A stretch of DNA of 19,967 nucleotides, taken from Deltaproteobacteria bacterium (GTDB lineage: Bacteria > Desulfobacterota > Desulfobacteria > Desulfobacterales > JAUVGT01). The notes under the pieces were generated by a model. That model saw only the letters and a list, made by a program, of their open reading frames with translations, had not been told where the DNA came from and did not search any database. Positions 3,715 through 10,367 of this stretch are shown piece after piece. Position 1 is the stretch's first letter. Every line of letters starts with the position of its first letter. The position numbers were made by a program, and so were the translations under genes. The stretch is from NCBI GenBank assembly GCA_030593645.1, contig JAUVGT010000027.1, positions 1 to 19,967 on the forward strand, written 5' to 3'.

Positions 3715-4893
3715 TCAGGGCAGTTCCCAAAAGTTTTTTCGACTGGCATGGATCGGTTTTCCATATCTTAAGACGTCATCCATCCACACAATCAGTCGAT
3801 TAAATAATGGAAATTTCCTGATAAAATAGCGAACAGTATTATGTAAGTAACCGGCAGGTTTGTTAAACGGACAAACCATGACACAGTTGTTGCAGTCGAG
3901 CCAGTTTTTTACCCAGAACATAAAGCATTTTTCCGGGTTGATATACCATTTTAATATACCCGAATGATTGCTTGCTGACGGGCCTTTCGTTGCAGGTTCA
4001 TCTGATGAAATGGCTTGTGAAGGACAGTGTTGTGCGCATTTTTTACAGGTTCGGCAGAACTCTCTGACACCAAAGGGGCGAAAGTCATCATGCGCCAGGG
4101 GGAGGTCCGTAAACACTTTACAGATCCGTACCCTTGGACCGTACTTTTCTGTAATTAAAAGGCCCATGCGTCCCAACTCTCCCAGCCCTGCAGCCATAGC
4201 AAGCGGAATGGACAGGGCTGTGTCATTGCCTGACGGGATGGCTCGGTAGCCAAGTCCCCGGATAAATGTGGCAACCAGGTTTGCCAATACCGCCTGTGTT
4301 GAATATCCAAGGCCGGTAGCAGCGCCGGAAATACCGTCCGGAGAATAACGGCATGTGTCATAGTCCATCTCAACGACCATTACTACAGCGTTTGTAACTC
4401 CTTCGGGTAAATCGATCGGACGGTGTTCTGTATCGATCAGGTCGTATTCCCGTGAGTAAATGAGGTTCGGGTGAGCATGGCAGACACCCACAAGATCGGC
4501 GCCCAGAAATCGTGCTGCCTTTTTAACTATCTGTGAATTGGTTTCAGGGGAATTGGATACGGGTCCATCTGTATCAATAAATTTTTTTACTTTTTCTGAA
4601 ATATGTGTCCATGAATACAGGCCGTGATTTGACTTCATATTACCAAAGGCAAATCCATATTCAATATTCCAGGAAGCATTTCGTAGCGCGTAATCAAGTT
4701 TGCGGAATCCATACTTATCCTGATATTTGACCTGACCGTAAAGTTTGTTTCCGTGGGGAATGAATTCTGTGTCCCATGTCCTTCGCTTGAACATTTCATT
4801 TTTCTGATCAAACCGATAGTCTGGTACTTCCAGCGGGAAATAACGATTATCTTCTGCACTATGATTTTCCTGACTGTTTTGTCGGTTTTCCAT
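3715..4893 (-). CDS. Reductive dehalogenase (RdhA) family protein, short form (392 aa). It has no twin-arginine signal and there is no adjacent rdhB.
   Basis: AARFLGADLVGVC and AGLGELGRMGLLITEKYGPRVRICKVFTDLPL are core motifs of the RdhA/QueG-type corrinoid Fe-S family. There are two C-terminal Fe-S motifs: CRTCKKCAQHCP, and C-x10-CNNCVMVCP. RBS caggag precedes the ATG. The N-terminus (MENRQNSQENHS...) lacks an RR Tat motif. Confidence 0.7.
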   Translation of the reverse strand: MENRQNSQENHSAEDNRYFPLEVPDYRFDQKNEMFKRRTWDTEFIPHGNKLYGQVKYQDKYGFRKLDYALRNASWNIEYGFAFGNMKSNHGLYSWTHISEKVKKFIDTDGPVSNSPETNSQIVKKAARFLGADLVGVCHAHPNLIYSREYDLIDTEHRPIDLPEGVTNAVVMVVEMDYDTCRYSPDGISGAATGLGYSTQAVLANLVATFIRGLGYRAIPSGNDTALSIPLAMAAGLGELGRMGLLITEKYGPRVRICKVFTDLPLAHDDFRPFGVREFCRTCKKCAQHCPSQAISSDEPATKGPSASNHSGILKWYINPEKCFMFWVKNWLDCNNCVMVCPFNKPAGYLHNTVRYFIRKFPLFNRLIVWMDDVLRYGKPIHASRKNFWELP

Positions 4894-4909
4894 GCGGGAC
4901 TCCTGAGGG

Positions 4910-4943
4910 TGTAATTTGTATATACTTGTATATACAAATTACA
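4910..4943. promoter_or_regulatory. 34-bp perfect palindrome TGTAATTTGTATATAC-tt-GTATATACAAATTACA. It overlaps the -10 and transcription start region of the RdhA-like promoter and is a putative repressor operator.
   Basis: The 16-bp arms at 4910-4925 and 4928-4943 are exact reverse complements. The site lies 17-50 bp upstream of the rdhA-like ATG. Confidence 0.6.
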
Positions 4944-4957
4944 GAACTGTTTGTCAA
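4929..4957 (-). promoter_or_regulatory. Sigma70 promoter for the RdhA-like gene: TTGACA-N17-TATATA.
   Basis: The minus strand reads cccTTGACAaacagttctgtaatttgTATATAcaag...caggagtcccgcATG. The -35 is consensus, the spacer is 17 nt and the -10 is near-consensus. Confidence 0.55.
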
Positions 4958-5005
4958 GGGGGAAAAATGATCTGAGGAAATGAGTATTTGCTGCAATTCA
5001 GTATT

Positions 5006-5151
5006 TAGAACCTATCTCAAAAATATAGATTAGAGTTGAGGGCAAGGCACAGGTCAGTTAAAAAGCGGAGCATACACGTAGTATGTGAGTATTTTTCACT
5101 GACCTGTAACGCAGCCATCGAGCCTAAGATGTATTTTTGAGATAGGTTCTA
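5006..5151. repeat. ~146-bp element bounded by 18-bp terminal inverted repeats (tagaacctatctcaaaaa / tttttgagataggttcta) with an internal 10-bp hairpin. It is either MITE-like or a structured-RNA element.
   Basis: 5006-5023 is the exact reverse complement of 5134-5151. The internal stem acaggtcagt (5049-5058) pairs with actgacctgt (5098-5107). The right TIR overlaps the amidohydrolase stop codon. Confidence 0.5.
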
Positions 5152-6729
5152 CTTTTGATATACAATTTCGCCCTGAACAATAGTCATTTCAGTTTCTACT
5201 GACGTCCAGAGTTCAGGAGAAAGTTCAAACAGGTTTTGGCTGAAGACTGTCATATCGGCCCGTTTACCGGGTGCAATAGTGCCCAGGATATCGGACCTGC
5301 CGGAGGATATGTAGGGCTGAAGCGTGTATGGCGGAATACTTTCCGCGAGTGTGAGGTTTTGTTCAGGGAACCATCCCCCCGTTGGTTCTCCTTCAGGGTT
5401 TTTTCTTATAACCGCGGCCTGGAGACCCAGAACAGGATCGTTTGGTTCAACAGGTGCATCCGATCCAAACTGCAGGGGGATACCGGTCTCAAGCAGTGAT
5501 TTCCAGGCATAGGCGTATCTGCAGCGATCAGTTCCCAATAATTTAGTCGCGATGGGTATGTCTGTGGGAACAAAAACGGGTTGGACCGATGCAACCACAC
5601 CCAAATTGTGAAACAGATCCAGGTCTTTTGGCCGGTACAGCTGAACATGTTCAATACGGTCCGGTCTCTTGCCGGGGAGTTCATCTCTGGCAGAGGATAT
5701 CGCATTTAACGCATTTGTTAGCGCTTTATCACCAATTGCGTGAATGGCCACGTTCCATCCTTCATGATATGCCAGCCGTACATTATCCAGAAGTTCTTCA
5801 GGTGACAGGAAAGGTAAGCCGGTATAACCGGGCTCATCCTCATAAGGATCATGCAAAAGAGCGGTGCGTGAGCCAAGGGCACCATCCGCAAACATTTTTG
5901 CGTGGCCGGTCCAAAGGTATTCACTACCGCCACCGGGTTTAATATTTCGCTCTCCGGCCGTTTTAAGTTCATCCGGCGGTAATGTGTGGTATATTCGAAT
6001 CTTGAGTTTCTCTTCTTTTTCCAGAGAACGAAATGCTTCCCATTCATCAAGGGATTCCATCGTATTTACACCGGTCAATCCCATGCGAAATGCCTCTTTT
6101 TGGGCAAACATGGCTGCCTGTTTTCTCTCTTCAAGACTGGTTGAAGGAACATGGTCGTCGATCAGGTATTTTGCTTCACGGATGATTCCTGTGGGTTTCC
6201 CGGATACCGGGTTTTTATCAATTTTGCCGCCCGGCGGATCCGGTGTTTCTGCGGTGATACCGGCAATTTCCAGTGCCATAGTATTGACCCAAATGGAATG
6301 TGTACAGACCCGGGCCATCATTACCGGATTTTCAGGGGCGATTTTGTCAAGATCTTCTCTGTTTGGTTCACGGTTTTCATCCCAAAGGTTCTGGTTCCAG
6401 TTGCGGCCGATGATCCATTCCCCTCTTTTTCTGGACGATACAGTTTCTTTGATTTTTTTCAGACAGGCATCAATGGATGATAAATTTCTAAGGTCGATAT
6501 TTTGAAGTGAAAAACCGAAACTGATAAAATGACAGTGTGAATCCACAAAACCCGGAGTGATTAAACGCCCGGGTAAATCGATTTCAATACTTCCAGGGTT
6601 TGATGCACGTTTAACATCTTTGTTGCTTCCGATTGCCTGGATTAAACCGTTACGGACAGCAACAGCTTCAGCCCACGGGAGTTTTGCGTCACCTGTAAAA
6701 ATGTGTGATGAGTAAATTGTAAGATCCAT
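5149..6729 (-). CDS. Amidohydrolase-3 family metal-dependent hydrolase (YtcJ-like). The likely start is the MDLTIYS Met at 6729; the longer ORF start at 6762 lacks an RBS.
   Basis: HxH metal-binding motif GFVDSHCHF near the N-terminus, and amidohydrolase-like His/Asp motifs later (IHAIGD, GSDAPV). RBS ggaagga is 6 nt before the 6729 ATG. Confidence 0.8.
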   Translation of the reverse strand: MDLTIYSSHIFTGDAKLPWAEAVAVRNGLIQAIGSNKDVKRASNPGSIEIDLPGRLITPGFVDSHCHFISFGFSLQNIDLRNLSSIDACLKKIKETVSSRKRGEWIIGRNWNQNLWDENREPNREDLDKIAPENPVMMARVCTHSIWVNTMALEIAGITAETPDPPGGKIDKNPVSGKPTGIIREAKYLIDDHVPSTSLEERKQAAMFAQKEAFRMGLTGVNTMESLDEWEAFRSLEKEEKLKIRIYHTLPPDELKTAGERNIKPGGGSEYLWTGHAKMFADGALGSRTALLHDPYEDEPGYTGLPFLSPEELLDNVRLAYHEGWNVAIHAIGDKALTNALNAISSARDELPGKRPDRIEHVQLYRPKDLDLFHNLGVVASVQPVFVPTDIPIATKLLGTDRCRYAYAWKSLLETGIPLQFGSDAPVEPNDPVLGLQAAVIRKNPEGEPTGGWFPEQNLTLAESIPPYTLQPYISSGRSDILGTIAPGKRADMTVFSQNLFELSPELWTSVETEMTIVQGEIVYQK

Positions 6730-8260: not shown

Positions 8261-8377
8261 TCATCACTAATCGGGAGACCATCATCATTAAATAACAATA
8301 TAGCTCAGGATGGGTTATGGTTGATCAGAAATGTATACTCTGGATGTTCAGTCAATCGTGAAAACAGGAAAAAGATA

Positions 8378-9298
8378 ATGAGCAGCATATTTCAGAAATT
8401 GGAAAATAAAAAACTTCTGGAACACCATCCCTCGTTTATCAGCACCGGTGTTCATTATGAGGTCGTAATGGGCTCAGTGGCTTACGGTGTTTCAAGTGAT
8501 GCTTCAGATATGGACGTATATGGGTTTTGTATTCCCCCGAAGGATTTTGTTTTTCCTCATTTGCGAGGAGAGATTCCCGGATTCAGCAAGCCGGGTTCAT
8601 CATTTGAGCAATTTCAGCAGCATCATATTTATGATCAAACGGCATGCGGCGGTAGAGGCAGGGAATATGATATAACCATATATTCGATTATTAAGTACTT
8701 TCGATTATGCATGGAGAATAATCCGAATATGATCGACAGTCTTTTTGTTCCAAGACGCTGCATATTGTACTCTACTCAAACCGGAGAATTGGTTAGAGAA
8801 AACAGGCACCTTTTTCTTCACAAAGGCGCGTGGCATAAATTTAAAGGATATGCCTTTTCTCAGGTACATAAGATGAATACAAAGCAGCCGATTGGAAAGA
8901 GAAAAAAAATTATTGAACAGTTCGGATATGATGTAAAGTTCGCATACCATGTGGTTCGGCTGTTAAACGAAGTTGAGCAGATTTTAACGGAGCACGATCT
9001 TGACCTGGAGAAAAACCGGGAGCAGCTTAAAGCGATACGGCGGGGAGAGTGGAGCAGTGAAAAAATAAAAGAATATTTCGCGTCCAAGGAAAGAGAGCTT
9101 GAATCCCTGTATACTTCAAGCAAACTTTCTCCAATACCCAAAGAATCGGAAATTCAAAACCTTTTACTTAACTGTCTTGAGCACCACTATGGAAGCCTTG
9201 AAGCCTGTATTATTCGGGAAGATGCGGCGATTAAAGCGTTAAAGGATATTGACAAAATTCTGGATCGTTTGGATATCAAAACTAAAATTAAAAGCTGA
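8378..9298 (+). CDS. Pol-beta superfamily nucleotidyltransferase, predicted-NTase (PF10127/RlaP-like) family, copy 1. The ORF track begins at TTG 8321; the ATG at 8378 has an RBS.
   Basis: GS-x9-DxD signature MGSVAYGVSSDASDMDVYGF. ~300 aa with an alpha-helical C-terminal half. It is a paralog of the next gene. RBS aggaaa precedes ATG 8378. Confidence 0.6.
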   Translation: MSSIFQKLENKKLLEHHPSFISTGVHYEVVMGSVAYGVSSDASDMDVYGFCIPPKDFVFPHLRGEIPGFSKPGSSFEQFQQHHIYDQTACGGRGREYDITIYSIIKYFRLCMENNPNMIDSLFVPRRCILYSTQTGELVRENRHLFLHKGAWHKFKGYAFSQVHKMNTKQPIGKRKKIIEQFGYDVKFAYHVVRLLNEVEQILTEHDLDLEKNREQLKAIRRGEWSSEKIKEYFASKERELESLYTSSKLSPIPKESEIQNLLLNCLEHHYGSLEACIIREDAAIKALKDIDKILDRLDIKTKIKS

Positions 9299-9380
9299 TT
9301 TAAGATGAACAGAGCCAATACCGACTCCGAATTTCGATTGAGCGCGTTATTATTTCCCCTTGAGGGGACAGGGTGATACT

Positions 9381-10145
9381 ATGAACGTAAAAGAGAAAAT
9401 ACTAACCGGTTTGCGCCGGATAGAAAAGAAGTATAACGTCAAAATTATCTATGCCTGTGAATCGGGCAGCCGGGCCTGGGGATTTCCTTCAGAAGACAGT
9501 GATTACGATGTCCGCTTTATCTATGTCCATCCAAAGGACTGGTATTTAAGTATCGTAGAAAAGCGTGATGTAATCGAGATCCCGGTTGATAACGAACTTG
9601 ATATAAACGGGTGGGATATCCGGAAGTCGCTTTCACTTTTGAGAAAATCCAATGCCCCGATTCTTGAGTGGCTATCCTCACCAATCGTATATATGAAGGA
9701 CGTTAAAATTCTGGCCCCATTGCGAACATTATCTGGAAAAGCATTTTTGCCTGAATCCGTATGCCATCATTACCTGTCCATGGCTAAGAAGATGCTTGAA
9801 AAGATCGAGAATTCTTCAAAGGTCAGAATCAAAACCTACTTGTACGCCATACGGCCTGTGCTTTGCTGCATGTGGATTATCGAGAAGGGAACCCAGCCCC
9901 CTATGCTGTTCGGTACCTTAAAAAAATTATATTTGCCAAAAGGGAAAAGCAGGGAAGAAGTTGACAAACTGCTCATCCAGAAGGCGAAAAGTCTGGAATC
10001 AGATTTAATCGACCATTCCATTGTACTTGATGAGTTCCTTTCAGTAGAAACACAAAAAATAACTGACAATATTCCCAAAAATCCCTTAAAATGTGATGTC
10101 AACAATTTTGACAGTGTGTTTAAAGAGATCCTGGAAAGTGCCTGA
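9381..10145 (+). CDS. Pol-beta superfamily nucleotidyltransferase, predicted-NTase (PF10127/RlaP-like) family, copy 2. The ORF track begins at TTG 9360.
   Basis: ESGSRAWGFPSEDSDYDVRFIYV (hG[GS]...[DE]xD) NTase signature. Conserved ...AIRPVLCCMWI...PP..F block. Confidence 0.65.
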   Translation: MNVKEKILTGLRRIEKKYNVKIIYACESGSRAWGFPSEDSDYDVRFIYVHPKDWYLSIVEKRDVIEIPVDNELDINGWDIRKSLSLLRKSNAPILEWLSSPIVYMKDVKILAPLRTLSGKAFLPESVCHHYLSMAKKMLEKIENSSKVRIKTYLYAIRPVLCCMWIIEKGTQPPMLFGTLKKLYLPKGKSREEVDKLLIQKAKSLESDLIDHSIVLDEFLSVETQKITDNIPKNPLKCDVNNFDSVFKEILESA

Positions 10146-10367
10146 TCTTAGGGGGCGCGCAAAAATAACTTCATATTTTTTACATCCCGGATTCAGGCCG
10201 GCTTTGCCCGATCCTCAATTGCAAAATTCTCGAAATAGCTCACTTGGATACATAATTTTGTTTTTACAAAAAAATATCCGGGCTGCTGACACGGGGTTGT
10301 CACTCAACTGTTGTATCAAAATACATTGCTCTAAAAACAATAAAATACTATCGCGGGGAGTTTTATC

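What the first reader, a model, noticed from the sequence alone, without database searches (positions are those of the whole stretch)
4910..4957. Consensus sigma70 promoter whose -10 and start region are buried in a 34-bp perfect palindrome upstream of the RdhA-like gene
TTGACA-N17-TATATA is close to the ideal promoter. The 16+2+16 palindrome TGTAATTTGTATATAC/GTATATACAAATTACA overlaps the -10 and the predicted transcription start. This is classic repressor-operator geometry. The sequence is not the known CprK dehalobox (TTAAT-N4-ATTAA), so an undescribed regulator-operator pair for a dehalogenase-like gene is plausible. No regulator gene is adjacent in this window.
Basis: seen in the sequence. 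Interest (0 to 1): 0.55.

Follow-up and report, generated by a model that had tools for sequence, protein, structure and literature searches.

The report
HutC-type operator on a dehalogenase-like promoter
The perfect palindrome is real, but it is two copies of the well-known binding box of HutC-type (GntR-family) repressors sitting on the promoter of a dehalogenase-like gene, so the switch is an ordinary kind; the only unusual point is that it ties this enzyme to histidine breakdown.

Summary
A perfect 16+2+16 palindrome lies at 4910-4943. On the minus strand it covers TTGACA-17-TATATA, the predicted start site and the first transcribed bases. It ends 6 nt before the ribosome-binding site of a cytoplasmic RdhA-family gene (3715-4893, minus).

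The "undescribed regulator" reading does not hold. The palindrome is two copies of the self-complementary octamer GTATATAC, 10 bp apart. This is the published GntR/HutC-subfamily box: HutC Phut site TGTA-N2-TACA, and TreR box TTGTATATACAA.

Supporting evidence:
- The same 22-mer lies next to GntR+UTRA regulators in nine genomes, seven of them true hutC/hutI/hutG loci.
- In L103, an RdhA ortholog (71% identity) sits in a hutC-rdhA-ftcD operon divergent from hutU-hutI-hutH. A near-identical double box (2 mismatches) sits beside a TTGACA in the hutU/hutC intergenic region.
- Orthologs lie within 10 kb of hut genes in 4 of 10 distinct contexts.
- The 30-bp core is identical in the closest ortholog, where third codon positions are 79% identical.

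Best explanation: a HutC-type repressor encoded elsewhere blocks RNA polymerase and is released by urocanate or a relative.

Caveat: toxin-antitoxin modules use the same 22-mer, so the motif alone does not name the protein. This is a new member of a known kind, of modest interest.

The parts
4952..4957 (-). -35 hexamer TTGACA (6/6 match to consensus)
   Evidence: Read from the sequence. Identical in L002 and in the L103 hutC promoter.
4929..4934 (-). -10 hexamer TATATA (4/6; no T at -7), 17 nt after the -35. It lies wholly inside box A.
   Evidence: Read from the sequence. The consensus scan, which requires T at position 6, does not list it.
4910..4943 (.). 34-bp perfect palindrome (16+2+16), the whole operator region. 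It spans about -21 to +13 relative to the inferred start site.
   Evidence: The central 30 bp (4912-4941) are identical in L002. The one arm position that differs is changed symmetrically in both arms.
4926..4937 (.). Box A: TTGTATATACAA, a perfect HutC-subfamily/Phut box (core GTATATAC at 4928-4935; TGTATATACA at 4927-4936). It covers the -10.
   Evidence: Zero mismatches. Literature consensus.
4916..4927 (.). Box B: TTGTATATACTT (read on the minus strand, AAGTATATACAA). Its core GTATATAC is at 4918-4925, and its centre is 10 bp from that of box A. It covers the inferred start site.
   Evidence: The same 10-bp tandem occurs in hut loci and in L103.
4920..4923 (-). Inferred transcription start, about 6-9 nt after the -10. 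This is not mapped experimentally.
   Evidence: Inference from standard sigma70 promoter geometry. A transcript starting here has an unstructured leader.
4900..4904 (-). Shine-Dalgarno AGGAG, 6 nt before the ATG
   Evidence: Read from the sequence. Conserved in L002.
3715..4893 (-). Regulated gene: a 392-aa cytoplasmic RdhA-family protein with two Fe-S cluster motifs and no Tat leader
   Evidence: TIGR02486 at 218 bits, above the cutoff of 160. PDB PceA-type hits at E 6e-64 and 6e-54, against QueG at 1e-5. Translation.
5154..5165 (.). Possible weak extra box TTTGATATACAA (2 mismatches), about 228 bp upstream at the stop codon of the amidohydrolase gene. Its status is uncertain.
   Evidence: (pair I4). 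No conservation data are available.

Best explanation
The palindrome is the operator of a GntR-family repressor of the HutC subfamily. This is most probably the histidine-utilization repressor HutC, or a close paralogue, encoded elsewhere in the genome.

The operator consists of two canonical boxes, each with the core GTATATAC. Their centres are one helical turn (10 bp) apart. Box A contains the -10 hexamer and box B contains the transcription start of a sigma70-type promoter (TTGACA-17-TATATA) that drives the RdhA-like gene.

Proposed mechanism:
- Repressor bound here keeps RNA polymerase from forming an open complex. The repressor is probably two dimers acting as a tetramer, as HutC does at PhutU in Pseudomonas.
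- Binding of the pathway intermediate releases the repressor and switches the gene on. For HutC that intermediate is urocanate; here it could be a related imidazole compound.

What is shown: the sequence, its position on the promoter, its conservation, its identity to known HutC-subfamily boxes, and the same double box on a hutC-rdhA-ftcD operon in an orthologous locus.

What is inferred: which protein binds, its stoichiometry, the inducer, the start site, and that the effect is repression.
For: 1. Sequence identity to published boxes.
- 4927-4936 is TGTATATACA, the HutC Phut consensus TGTA-N2-TACA. HutC forms a tetramer with a 51-bp footprint at PhutU and is released by urocanate (PMC12977541).
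- GTATATAC fits the HutC-subfamily consensus NyGTMTAKACNy, and extra boxes 7-12 nt from the site centre are common in this family (PMC4494728).
- TTGTATATACAA is the TreR box (PMC11356801). CelR of C. difficile uses AAATGTATATACATTT twice.

2. Genome survey.
- The exact 22-mer TTGTATATACNNGTATATACAA occurs in 76 species-representative genomes. My arithmetic gives about 0.5-4 expected by chance.
- Nine of these sites lie beside a HutC-like regulator. Four were checked against family models. Two pass the HutC equivalog model TIGR02018 (284 and 258 bits, cutoff 220), with hutI (449 bits) and hutG (348 bits) nearby. Two control other catabolic operons and carry GntR+UTRA domains.
- Every metabolic (non-mobile) context in the survey has such a regulator.

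3. Orthologous locus L103.
- The RdhA ortholog (71% identity) lies directly after a GntR+UTRA gene whose best family match is HutC (196 bits). It is followed by ftcD (450 bits), and the operon is divergent from hutU (852 bits)-hutI-hutH.
- The only box in 21 kb sits in the hutU/hutC intergenic region: TTGACAtagggttaaaATGTATATACAAATATATACAAATTT.
- It has the same 10-bp tandem, the same central AA and the same AAATT flank, with 2 mismatches to the window 22-mer.

4. RdhA orthologs lie within 10 kb of hutH/hutU/hutI/ftcD in 4 of 10 distinct contexts.

5. Purifying selection. The -35 and the 30-bp core are identical between the window and L002, while third codon positions are 79% identical (0.79^30 is about 8e-4) and the flanking bases differ.

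6. A transcript from this promoter would not contain the full hairpin, and its leader is unstructured.
Against: - No GntR-family gene is in the 20-kb window. The rest of the genome could not be searched, because the contig is not in the species-representative collection.
- The same 22-mer is also the promoter element of unrelated small regulators. It occurs at 49 nucleotidyltransferase/CopG-like modules in Bdellovibrionota, at MazE genes and at small ribbon-helix-helix genes. A Phd antitoxin binds TGTATATACA (PMC13034048). Motif identity alone therefore does not name the protein.
- Other RdhA orthologs have no such box, including three hut-linked clusters (L003/L007, L090, L101), one of which (L090) carries HutP and an AraC-type regulator. 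The link is lineage-specific.
- No hut gene is in the window.
- The L103 regulator scores slightly below the HutC equivalog cutoff (196 against 220 bits).
- Two dimers on boxes only 10 bp apart may clash sterically. The binding register and stoichiometry are unknown.
Confidence: 0.72

Rival explanations
1. The operator belongs to a small antitoxin-like or phage/plasmid-type repressor (ribbon-helix-helix CopG/RelB, AbrB/MazE or Phd family) that happens to control this gene.
For: - The identical 22-mer precedes 49 nucleotidyltransferase+CopG-like modules, 4 mazE genes and 1 small ribbon-helix-helix gene among the 76 genomes.
- All classifiable metagenome hits to the longer pattern are of this kind.
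- E. faecalis Phd was crystallized with TGTATATACA (PMC13034048).
Against: - In all those cases the small regulator or toxin gene starts within a few to about 30 nt of the box (autoregulation). Here the box is followed directly by the RBS and ATG of a 392-aa metabolic enzyme.
- No plausible small ORF lies in 4894-5148.
- The L103 orthologous locus places the same box on a hutC promoter.
Confidence: 0.08
2. One reading: a new, undescribed regulator family specific for this dehalogenase-like gene recognises the palindrome.
For: - No regulator gene is adjacent.
- The outer arms beyond the two boxes (TAATT/AATTA) are also conserved in L002, and there the palindrome extends to 20+2+20. This is more than a minimal HutC box needs.
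Against: - The core is an exact match to a box already documented for several HutC-subfamily regulators.
- The same box is associated with HutC-like genes in 9 genomes and in L103.
- Nothing in the data calls for a new family.
Confidence: 0.07
3. The element works as a nucleic-acid structure rather than as a protein site. It could be an RNA hairpin in read-through transcripts from the upstream amidohydrolase gene (affecting processing or stability), or a DNA cruciform or repeat-element end.
For: - As RNA it folds into a 15-bp stem of -17.4 kcal/mol, z = -3.7.
- The one arm change between the window and L002 is symmetric, as expected for a maintained stem.
- A REP-like 146-nt hairpin lies 60 nt upstream.
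Against: - The stem is not followed by a U-run and leaves the SD free.
- The -35 at the right distance is conserved in three loci.
- A transcript from that promoter lacks the upstream arm.
- In L103 the second box is imperfect (ATATATAC), which weakens the stem but keeps the box register.
- Symmetric changes can also arise from template-switch correction of quasi-palindromes (general knowledge).
Confidence: 0.06
4. A chance AT-rich low-complexity palindrome with no function.
For: The sequence is AT-rich and built from a simple (TA)n-like core.
Against: - The arm of 16 compares with 7-13 in 60 simulations.
- 30/30 conservation against 79% neutral identity.
- 76 genomic occurrences against at most about 4 expected.
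Confidence: 0.01

Closest known systems
HutC operator (Phut site, TGTA-N2-TACA) of histidine-utilization promoters (Pseudomonas, Klebsiella; GntR/HutC subfamily)
   Same: - The 10-bp core TGTATATACA is identical.
- The site overlaps the promoter and acts as a repressor site.
- Higher-order (tetramer) occupancy of an extended region is documented at PhutU.
- The same double box is found in hutC/hutI/hutG intergenic regions of Halieaceae, Simiduia and Parahaliea, and on the hutC-rdhA-ftcD operon of L103.
   Different: - The target here is an RdhA-family gene with no hut gene and no hutC within 20 kb.
- Two full boxes lie 10 bp apart inside a perfect 34-bp palindrome, rather than one box.
- The host is an uncultured, probably Desulfobacterota lineage, outside the Alpha-, Beta- and Gammaproteobacteria where HutC regulons have been reconstructed (PMC5343134).
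- The Pseudomonas hutU promoter is sigma54-type, whereas this one is sigma70-type.
TreR boxes of the Bacillus trehalose operon and CelR boxes of C. difficile (other HutC-subfamily repressors)
   Same: - The same 12-mer TTGTATATACAA / ATGTATATACAA (TreR), or the GTATATAC core (CelR).
- Two boxes per promoter.
- The boxes span the promoter of a catabolic operon.
   Different: These are sugar-phosphate-responsive regulators encoded in the regulated operon. Nothing links this locus to trehalose or cellobiose, and the orthologous context points to hut.
CprK/dehalobox control of respiratory reductive dehalogenase genes
   Same: A palindromic DNA site upstream of an rdhA-family gene.
   Different: - The sequence is different (TTAAT-N4-ATTAA is absent).
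- CprK is a CRP/FNR activator binding near -41.5, not a repressor site over the -10/+1.
- This RdhA is cytoplasmic, with no Tat signal and no rdhB.
Autoregulatory operators of type II toxin-antitoxin modules (CopG/RHH, MazE/AbrB, Phd)
   Same: The very same 22-mer lies over the promoter, and tandem short palindromes one helical turn apart are typical of these operators.
   Different: Those operators sit directly in front of the small antitoxin/toxin genes. No such genes are here.

Membership tests
GntR/HutC-subfamily operator (HutC Phut site) | Palindromic core GT[A/C]TA[G/T]AC, that is TGTA-N2-TACA | tested here: met
   4927-4936 is TGTATATACA exactly, and a second core GTATATAC lies at 4918-4925. 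The consensus comes from PMC4494728 and PMC12977541.
GntR/HutC-subfamily operator (HutC Phut site) | The site overlaps the promoter of the regulated catabolic gene | tested here: met
   Box A contains the -10 and box B the inferred +1. The TTGACA and the box are kept together in L002 and L103. The start site itself is not mapped.
GntR/HutC-subfamily operator (HutC Phut site) | A cognate GntR+UTRA regulator gene in cis or elsewhere in the genome | tested here: inconclusive
   None is present in the 20-kb window. One lies immediately upstream of the RdhA ortholog in L103.
GntR/HutC-subfamily operator (HutC Phut site) | The target gene belongs functionally to the regulated pathway (hut) | tested here: inconclusive
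   RdhA orthologs are within 10 kb of hutH/hutU/hutI/ftcD in 4 of 10 distinct contexts and in one operon with hutC in L103. No hut gene is in the window, and the enzyme's reaction is unknown.
GntR/HutC-subfamily operator (HutC Phut site) | Binding by HutC and release by urocanate | not testable with these tools
   This needs EMSA or footprinting with purified protein.
Sigma70-type promoter | -35 TTGACA, 16-18 nt spacer, -10 TATAAT with A at -11 and T at -7 | tested here: inconclusive
   The -35 is 6/6 and the spacer is 17. The -10 TATATA is 4/6, with A at -11 present and T at -7 absent, so the scan does not list it. The hexamers are conserved in L002.
CprK dehalobox | TTAAT-N4-ATTAA upstream of rdhA | tested here: not met
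   No match with up to 2 mismatches lies between 3519 and 6798. Window-wide there are 19 matches against 27 expected.
Toxin-antitoxin autoregulatory operator | The operator lies immediately upstream of a small antitoxin/toxin gene pair | tested here: not met
   The DNA motif is shared. The only ORFs of at least 20 aa in 4894-5148 overlap the RdhA gene out of frame or lie inside the repeat hairpin. The next gene is the 392-aa RdhA.
Reductive dehalogenase (RdhA) family, for the regulated gene | Match to the RDH model, two Fe-S motifs, similarity to solved RdhAs | tested here: met
   TIGR02486 scores 218 bits, above 160. CxxCxxCxxxCP and CxxCxxxCP motifs are present. PceA-type chains hit at E 6e-64 and 6e-54. 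No Tat leader is present, and no rdhB is in the window.

The most novel reading that the evidence does not exclude
A conserved clade of cytoplasmic, cobalamin/Fe-S RdhA-family enzymes may be an accessory component of anaerobic histidine catabolism, or of catabolism of a modified or halogenated histidine/imidazole compound. Members share 62-77% identity across sediment MAGs.

Evidence pointing this way:
- The gene nearly always sits beside a Liv-type amino-acid ABC transporter.
- It is repeatedly embedded in hutH-hutU-hutI-ftcD clusters.
- In at least two lineages (L103, and the window with L002) it carries a HutC-type double box at its promoter.

The palindrome would then be the first regulatory evidence placing an RdhA homologue in a hut regulon. 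No paper in the searchable library links the two.
Probability: 0.45. Interest if true: 0.6.

Novelty: new member of a known kind. Interest (0 to 1): 0.35.

Why it matters
The operator itself adds little. It is a textbook HutC-subfamily box in a tidy double arrangement on a sigma70-type promoter.

Its value is as a pointer. Non-respiratory RdhA homologues are abundant in marine-sediment genomes, and their substrates are mostly unknown. A HutC-type switch on this gene, together with the hutC-rdhA-ftcD operon in a relative, gives three concrete and testable leads:
- an inducer (histidine or urocanate),
- a regulator to clone,
- a class of candidate substrates (imidazole or amino-acid derivatives) for this clade.

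The work also shows that the exact same 22-bp sequence has been adopted by at least three unrelated regulator families. This is a caution against naming a regulator from a motif alone.

Tried and rejected
1. The palindrome was not found upstream of the 70-77% orthologs. They sit inside Liv-ABC/hut operons with short, unrelated intergenic regions. The weak TTGTTAATACAA in L003 is not kept in L007.

2. The metagenome scan for the longer pattern TTTGTATATACNNGTATATACAAA gave 8 loci. All were phage, plasmid or toxin-antitoxin-like, and none came from the window's lineage.

3. The window's contig is not in the species-representative genome collection, so a regulon search in its own genome was impossible.

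4. Exact-sequence cluster look-ups returned no names or accessions for window proteins.

5. The CCA-enzyme homologue search gave only a rough placement. The nearest named hits, Desulfococcaceae and 'Proteobacteria' MAGs, are at 47-48% identity.

6. Alternative -10 registers (ATATAC, TATACA, TACAAA with TGTAAT as the -35) were considered and are worse than TATATA. TG is not in the extended -10 position.

7. Terminator function is rejected, because no U-run follows the stem on either strand.

8. The alpha/beta-hydrolase next to the gene is only 24-26% identical to hydrolases near other orthologs, so it is not a conserved partner. The upstream amidohydrolase is 30% identical to one near the Gemmatimonadota ortholog, which is suggestive only.

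9. Flanking bases and the central dinucleotide of the 22-mer do not separate HutC-type from toxin-antitoxin-type sites (by eye).

Full report
**1. Observation**

The region reads, on the minus strand (4957 to 4891): TTGACA-AACAGTTCTGTAATTTG-TATATA-CAAGTATATACAAATTACACCCTC-AGGAG-TCCCGC-ATG.

- The inverted repeat is perfect. The arms are 4910-4925 and 4928-4943, 16 nt each, with a 2-nt centre.
- It is the longest perfect inverted repeat in the window. In 60 first-order Markov simulations the longest arm was 7-13 nt.
- The -35 is 6/6 and the spacer is 17. The -10 TATATA lacks the conserved T at -7, so the consensus scan, which requires it, does not list the site.
- If transcription starts about 7 nt after the -10 (near 4922, an inference), the palindrome spans about -21 to +13.

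**2. The gene**

- ORF 3715-4893 (minus, 392 aa) passes the RDH model: TIGR02486 scores 218 bits against a cutoff of 160.
- It carries CxxCxxCxxxCP and CxxCxxxCP motifs and has no Tat leader.
- It is far closer to PceA-type dehalogenases (E 6e-64 and 6e-54) than to QueG (1e-5) among solved structures.
- The window is a whole MAG contig.
- It also holds a CdaA-like gene, HU, a hydroxyaspartate ammonia-lyase, an alpha/beta hydrolase, an Amidohydro_3 enzyme, a CCA-adding enzyme, two RlaP nucleotidyltransferases, ArfB-like, RtcB, RtcA, an SPFH protein and RtcR.
- It holds no GntR, TetR, MarR or CRP-type regulator.
- The nearest named CCA-enzyme homologues are Desulfococcaceae and 'Proteobacteria' MAGs at 47-48% identity. 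The lineage is therefore poorly sampled and is probably Desulfobacterota.

**3. Conservation**

- Only one close ortholog exists in 5.8 billion clustered proteins: P0002, at 91% identity.
- Its contig, L002, has 69 nt upstream of the gene: CCATTGACAAATAGTTTTATAATTTGTATATACAAGTATATACAAATTATAAAACTTCAGGAGTCCCGCATG.
- Third codon positions of the two genes are 79% identical. The -35 and the central 30 bp of the palindrome are 100% identical, while the bases around them differ. The probability of 0.79^30 is about 8e-4.
- The single arm position that differs (G/C in the window, A/T in L002) changed in both arms. In L002 the palindrome is 20+2+20.
- The element is therefore under selection as a symmetric unit.

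**4. What the sequence is**

- GTATATAC is its own reverse complement. The 'palindrome' is therefore equally a tandem of two 8-bp palindromes, 10 bp centre to centre, with symmetric flanks.
- TTGTATATACAA (4926-4937) is a perfect 12-bp palindrome.
- This is the published HutC-subfamily box. The subfamily consensus is NyGTMTAKACNy, and additional boxes 7-12 nt from the site centre are frequent (PMC4494728).
- The canonical HutC Phut site is TGTA-N2-TACA. HutC forms a tetramer over 51 bp at PhutU and is released by urocanate (PMC12977541).
- The TreR boxes are TTGTATATACAA and ATGTATATACAA (PMC11356801).
- CelR of C. difficile uses AAATGTATATACATTT twice across its promoter (bioRxiv 10.1101/2021.06.26.450058).
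- A Phd antitoxin was also crystallized with TGTATATACA (PMC13034048).

**5. Survey of the exact 22-mer**

TTGTATATACNNGTATATACAA occurs in 76 species-representative genomes. My arithmetic gives about 0.5-4 expected by chance, depending on base composition. Classifying ORFs within 1.5 kb of the site gave:

| Context | Loci |
|---|---|
| ~157-aa AbiEii/DUF6036-like nucleotidyltransferase and/or CopG-like gene (all Bdellovibrionota) | 49 |
| HutC-like (GntR family) regulator | 9 |
| MazE | 4 |
| Small ribbon-helix-helix protein | 1 |
| Unclassified | 13 |

- Of the nine GntR loci, seven are hut loci of Halieaceae, Simiduia, Parahaliea, Haliea or Azotimanducaceae.
- Two regulators tested there pass the HutC equivalog model (284 and 258 bits, cutoff 220). 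HutI (449 bits) and HutG (348 bits) are adjacent.
- The other two GntR+UTRA regulators control a corrinoid-protein/methyltransferase operon in Zhenpiania and a PhyH/TRAP operon in Sulfitobacter.
- A metagenome scan with a longer pattern gave eight phage, plasmid or toxin-antitoxin-like loci.
- The sequence has therefore been adopted by at least three unrelated DNA-binding folds. In toxin-antitoxin or mobile contexts the small regulator gene begins right after the box. In metabolic contexts the partner is always a HutC-subfamily GntR protein.

**6. Orthologous contexts of the RdhA gene**

I read ten distinct contexts at 62-77% identity.

- Eight have a Liv-type ABC transporter next to the gene.
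- Four have hut genes within 10 kb:
  - L003 (with its close relative L007): HAL, urocanase and FTCD.
  - L090: two urocanases, a long HAL-like lyase, HutP, hutI and FTCD.
  - L101: hutU-ftcD-hutI-FTCD_C-hutH-Liv-rdhA on one strand.
  - L103: described below.
- Most have no HutC-type box.

L103 is the decisive case:
- hutH, hutI and hutU (TIGR01228, 852 bits) run one way.
- A GntR+UTRA gene runs the other way. Its best family match is HutC (196.5 bits, just under the 220 cutoff). It is followed by the RdhA ortholog, ftcD (450 bits) and FTCD_C.
- The only TGTA-N2-TACA in the 21 kb lies in the hutU/hutC intergenic region: cTTGACAtagggttaaaATGTATATACAAATATATACAAATTTtag.
- Aligned with the window, it shares the TTGACA, the two boxes in the same 10-bp register, the central AA and the AAATT flank.

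**7. Mechanism**

- Shown: a conserved sigma70-like promoter is completely overlaid, from the -10 through +1, by two canonical HutC-subfamily boxes.
- Shown: the same arrangement drives a hutC-rdhA-ftcD operon in a relative.
- Inferred: a HutC-type repressor encoded elsewhere binds the site, probably as two dimers side by side on one DNA face. It excludes RNA polymerase and dissociates when its ligand accumulates. The ligand is urocanate for HutC, or possibly a related compound here.
- The mediocre -10 hexamer may be the price of embedding it in the box core (TATATA lies inside GTATATAC).
- I put 0.72 on this explanation, and about 0.9 on the weaker claim that the element is a protein operator that represses this promoter.

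**8. Rivals**

- An orphan antitoxin-type repressor (0.08). This is disfavoured because no small gene follows the box and because of L103.
- A truly new regulator family (0.07). It is not needed by any observation, although conservation of the outer arms exceeds a minimal box.
- An RNA or DNA hairpin function (0.06). As RNA the element folds at -17.4 kcal/mol. However, it has no U-run, leaves the SD free, would not be fully transcribed from the conserved promoter, and is imperfect as a stem in L103 while keeping the box register.
- Chance (0.01).

**9. Comparison with known systems**

- The element works like a HutC, TreR or CelR operator.
- Membership in the HutC-operator class is met for the core sequence and for promoter overlap.
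- Membership is inconclusive for the cognate regulator (absent from the window, present in L103) and for pathway membership.
- Protein binding is untestable here.
- It is not a CprK dehalobox.
- It is not a toxin-antitoxin operator by context.

**10. Novelty and interest**

- The operator is a new member of a known kind, and interest is modest (0.35).
- The more novel reading is that this RdhA clade is an accessory enzyme of anaerobic histidine-type catabolism under HutC control. I found no paper connecting reductive dehalogenase homologues with hut genes.
- HutC regulons have been reconstructed only in Alpha-, Beta- and Gammaproteobacteria (PMC5343134).

**11. Dead ends**

These are listed under Tried and rejected. 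The main limitation is that the rest of this genome could not be searched for the regulator or for further boxes.

Noticed in passing
window 17506-17570 (-) and 17751-17766 (-): A perfect sigma54 promoter TGGCACatgcgTTGCT lies about 180 nt upstream of a tRNA-like element. Rfam tRNA scores 44.4 bits with the acceptor stem largely missing, and ARAGORN finds no tRNA. Both sit in the 1.1-kb gap between rtcR (18022-19644, +) and SPFH-rtcA-rtcB (minus strand). This looks like a YrlA/Y-RNA-like tRNA mimic in an RtcR-controlled RNA-repair operon that has no Ro/Rsr gene.
   Followed up: partly
window 5006-5151; also 1507-1524: A 146-nt near-perfect hairpin lies between the amidohydrolase stop codon and the RdhA promoter (RNA fold -64 kcal/mol, z = -9.2). 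Its ends are an 18-nt repeat, TAGAACCTATCTCAAAAA, which occurs three times in the window against 0.04 expected. At 1522 and at 5149 the TAG of the repeat is the stop codon of the upstream gene. It looks like a REP/MITE-like element, and it may insulate the RdhA promoter from upstream transcription.
   Followed up: partly
L003, L007, L087, L090, L100, L101, L103, L104, L105 (RdhA ortholog loci): This RdhA clade is unusually conserved for RdhAs (62-77% identity across MAGs labelled Desulfobacterales, Desulfatiglandaceae and Gemmatimonadota). It sits next to a five-gene Liv-type ABC transporter in 8 of 10 contexts and next to hut genes in 4 of 10. L090 also has a second urocanase paralogue and a 657-aa HAL-like lyase, which is reminiscent of ergothioneine or thiourocanate pathways.
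   Followed up: partly
L011-L086 (49 Bdellovibrionota loci, e.g. L013 5527-6252): In Bdellovibrionota, the same 22-mer lies between a TTGACA that abuts it and the ATG of a ~157-aa AbiEii/DUF6036-like nucleotidyltransferase, which starts only 6-8 nt after the box and is therefore apparently leaderless. An overlapping ~86-aa CopG-like gene follows. This is a very widely conserved toxin-antitoxin-like module, found once per species representative.
   Followed up: partly
L026 3320-3341 (Zhenpiania hominis): The same double box sits between a GntR+UTRA regulator and a corrinoid-protein plus methyltransferase operon. This is another cobalamin-dependent catabolic system under a HutC-subfamily box.
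   Followed up: no
window 8321-10145: Two tandem RlaP-family (PF10127) nucleotidyltransferase genes follow the CCA-adding enzyme gene. They lie in the same window as the rtcBA/rtcR RNA-repair genes.
   Followed up: no
window 5154-5165 and 10258-10269: Two weak HutC-like boxes with 2 mismatches each: TTTGATATACAA at the amidohydrolase stop codon, and TTGTTTTTACAA in the intergenic region before the GNAT/YoaP gene. Matches with up to 2 mismatches are enriched in the window, 6 against 1.2 expected.
   Followed up: no
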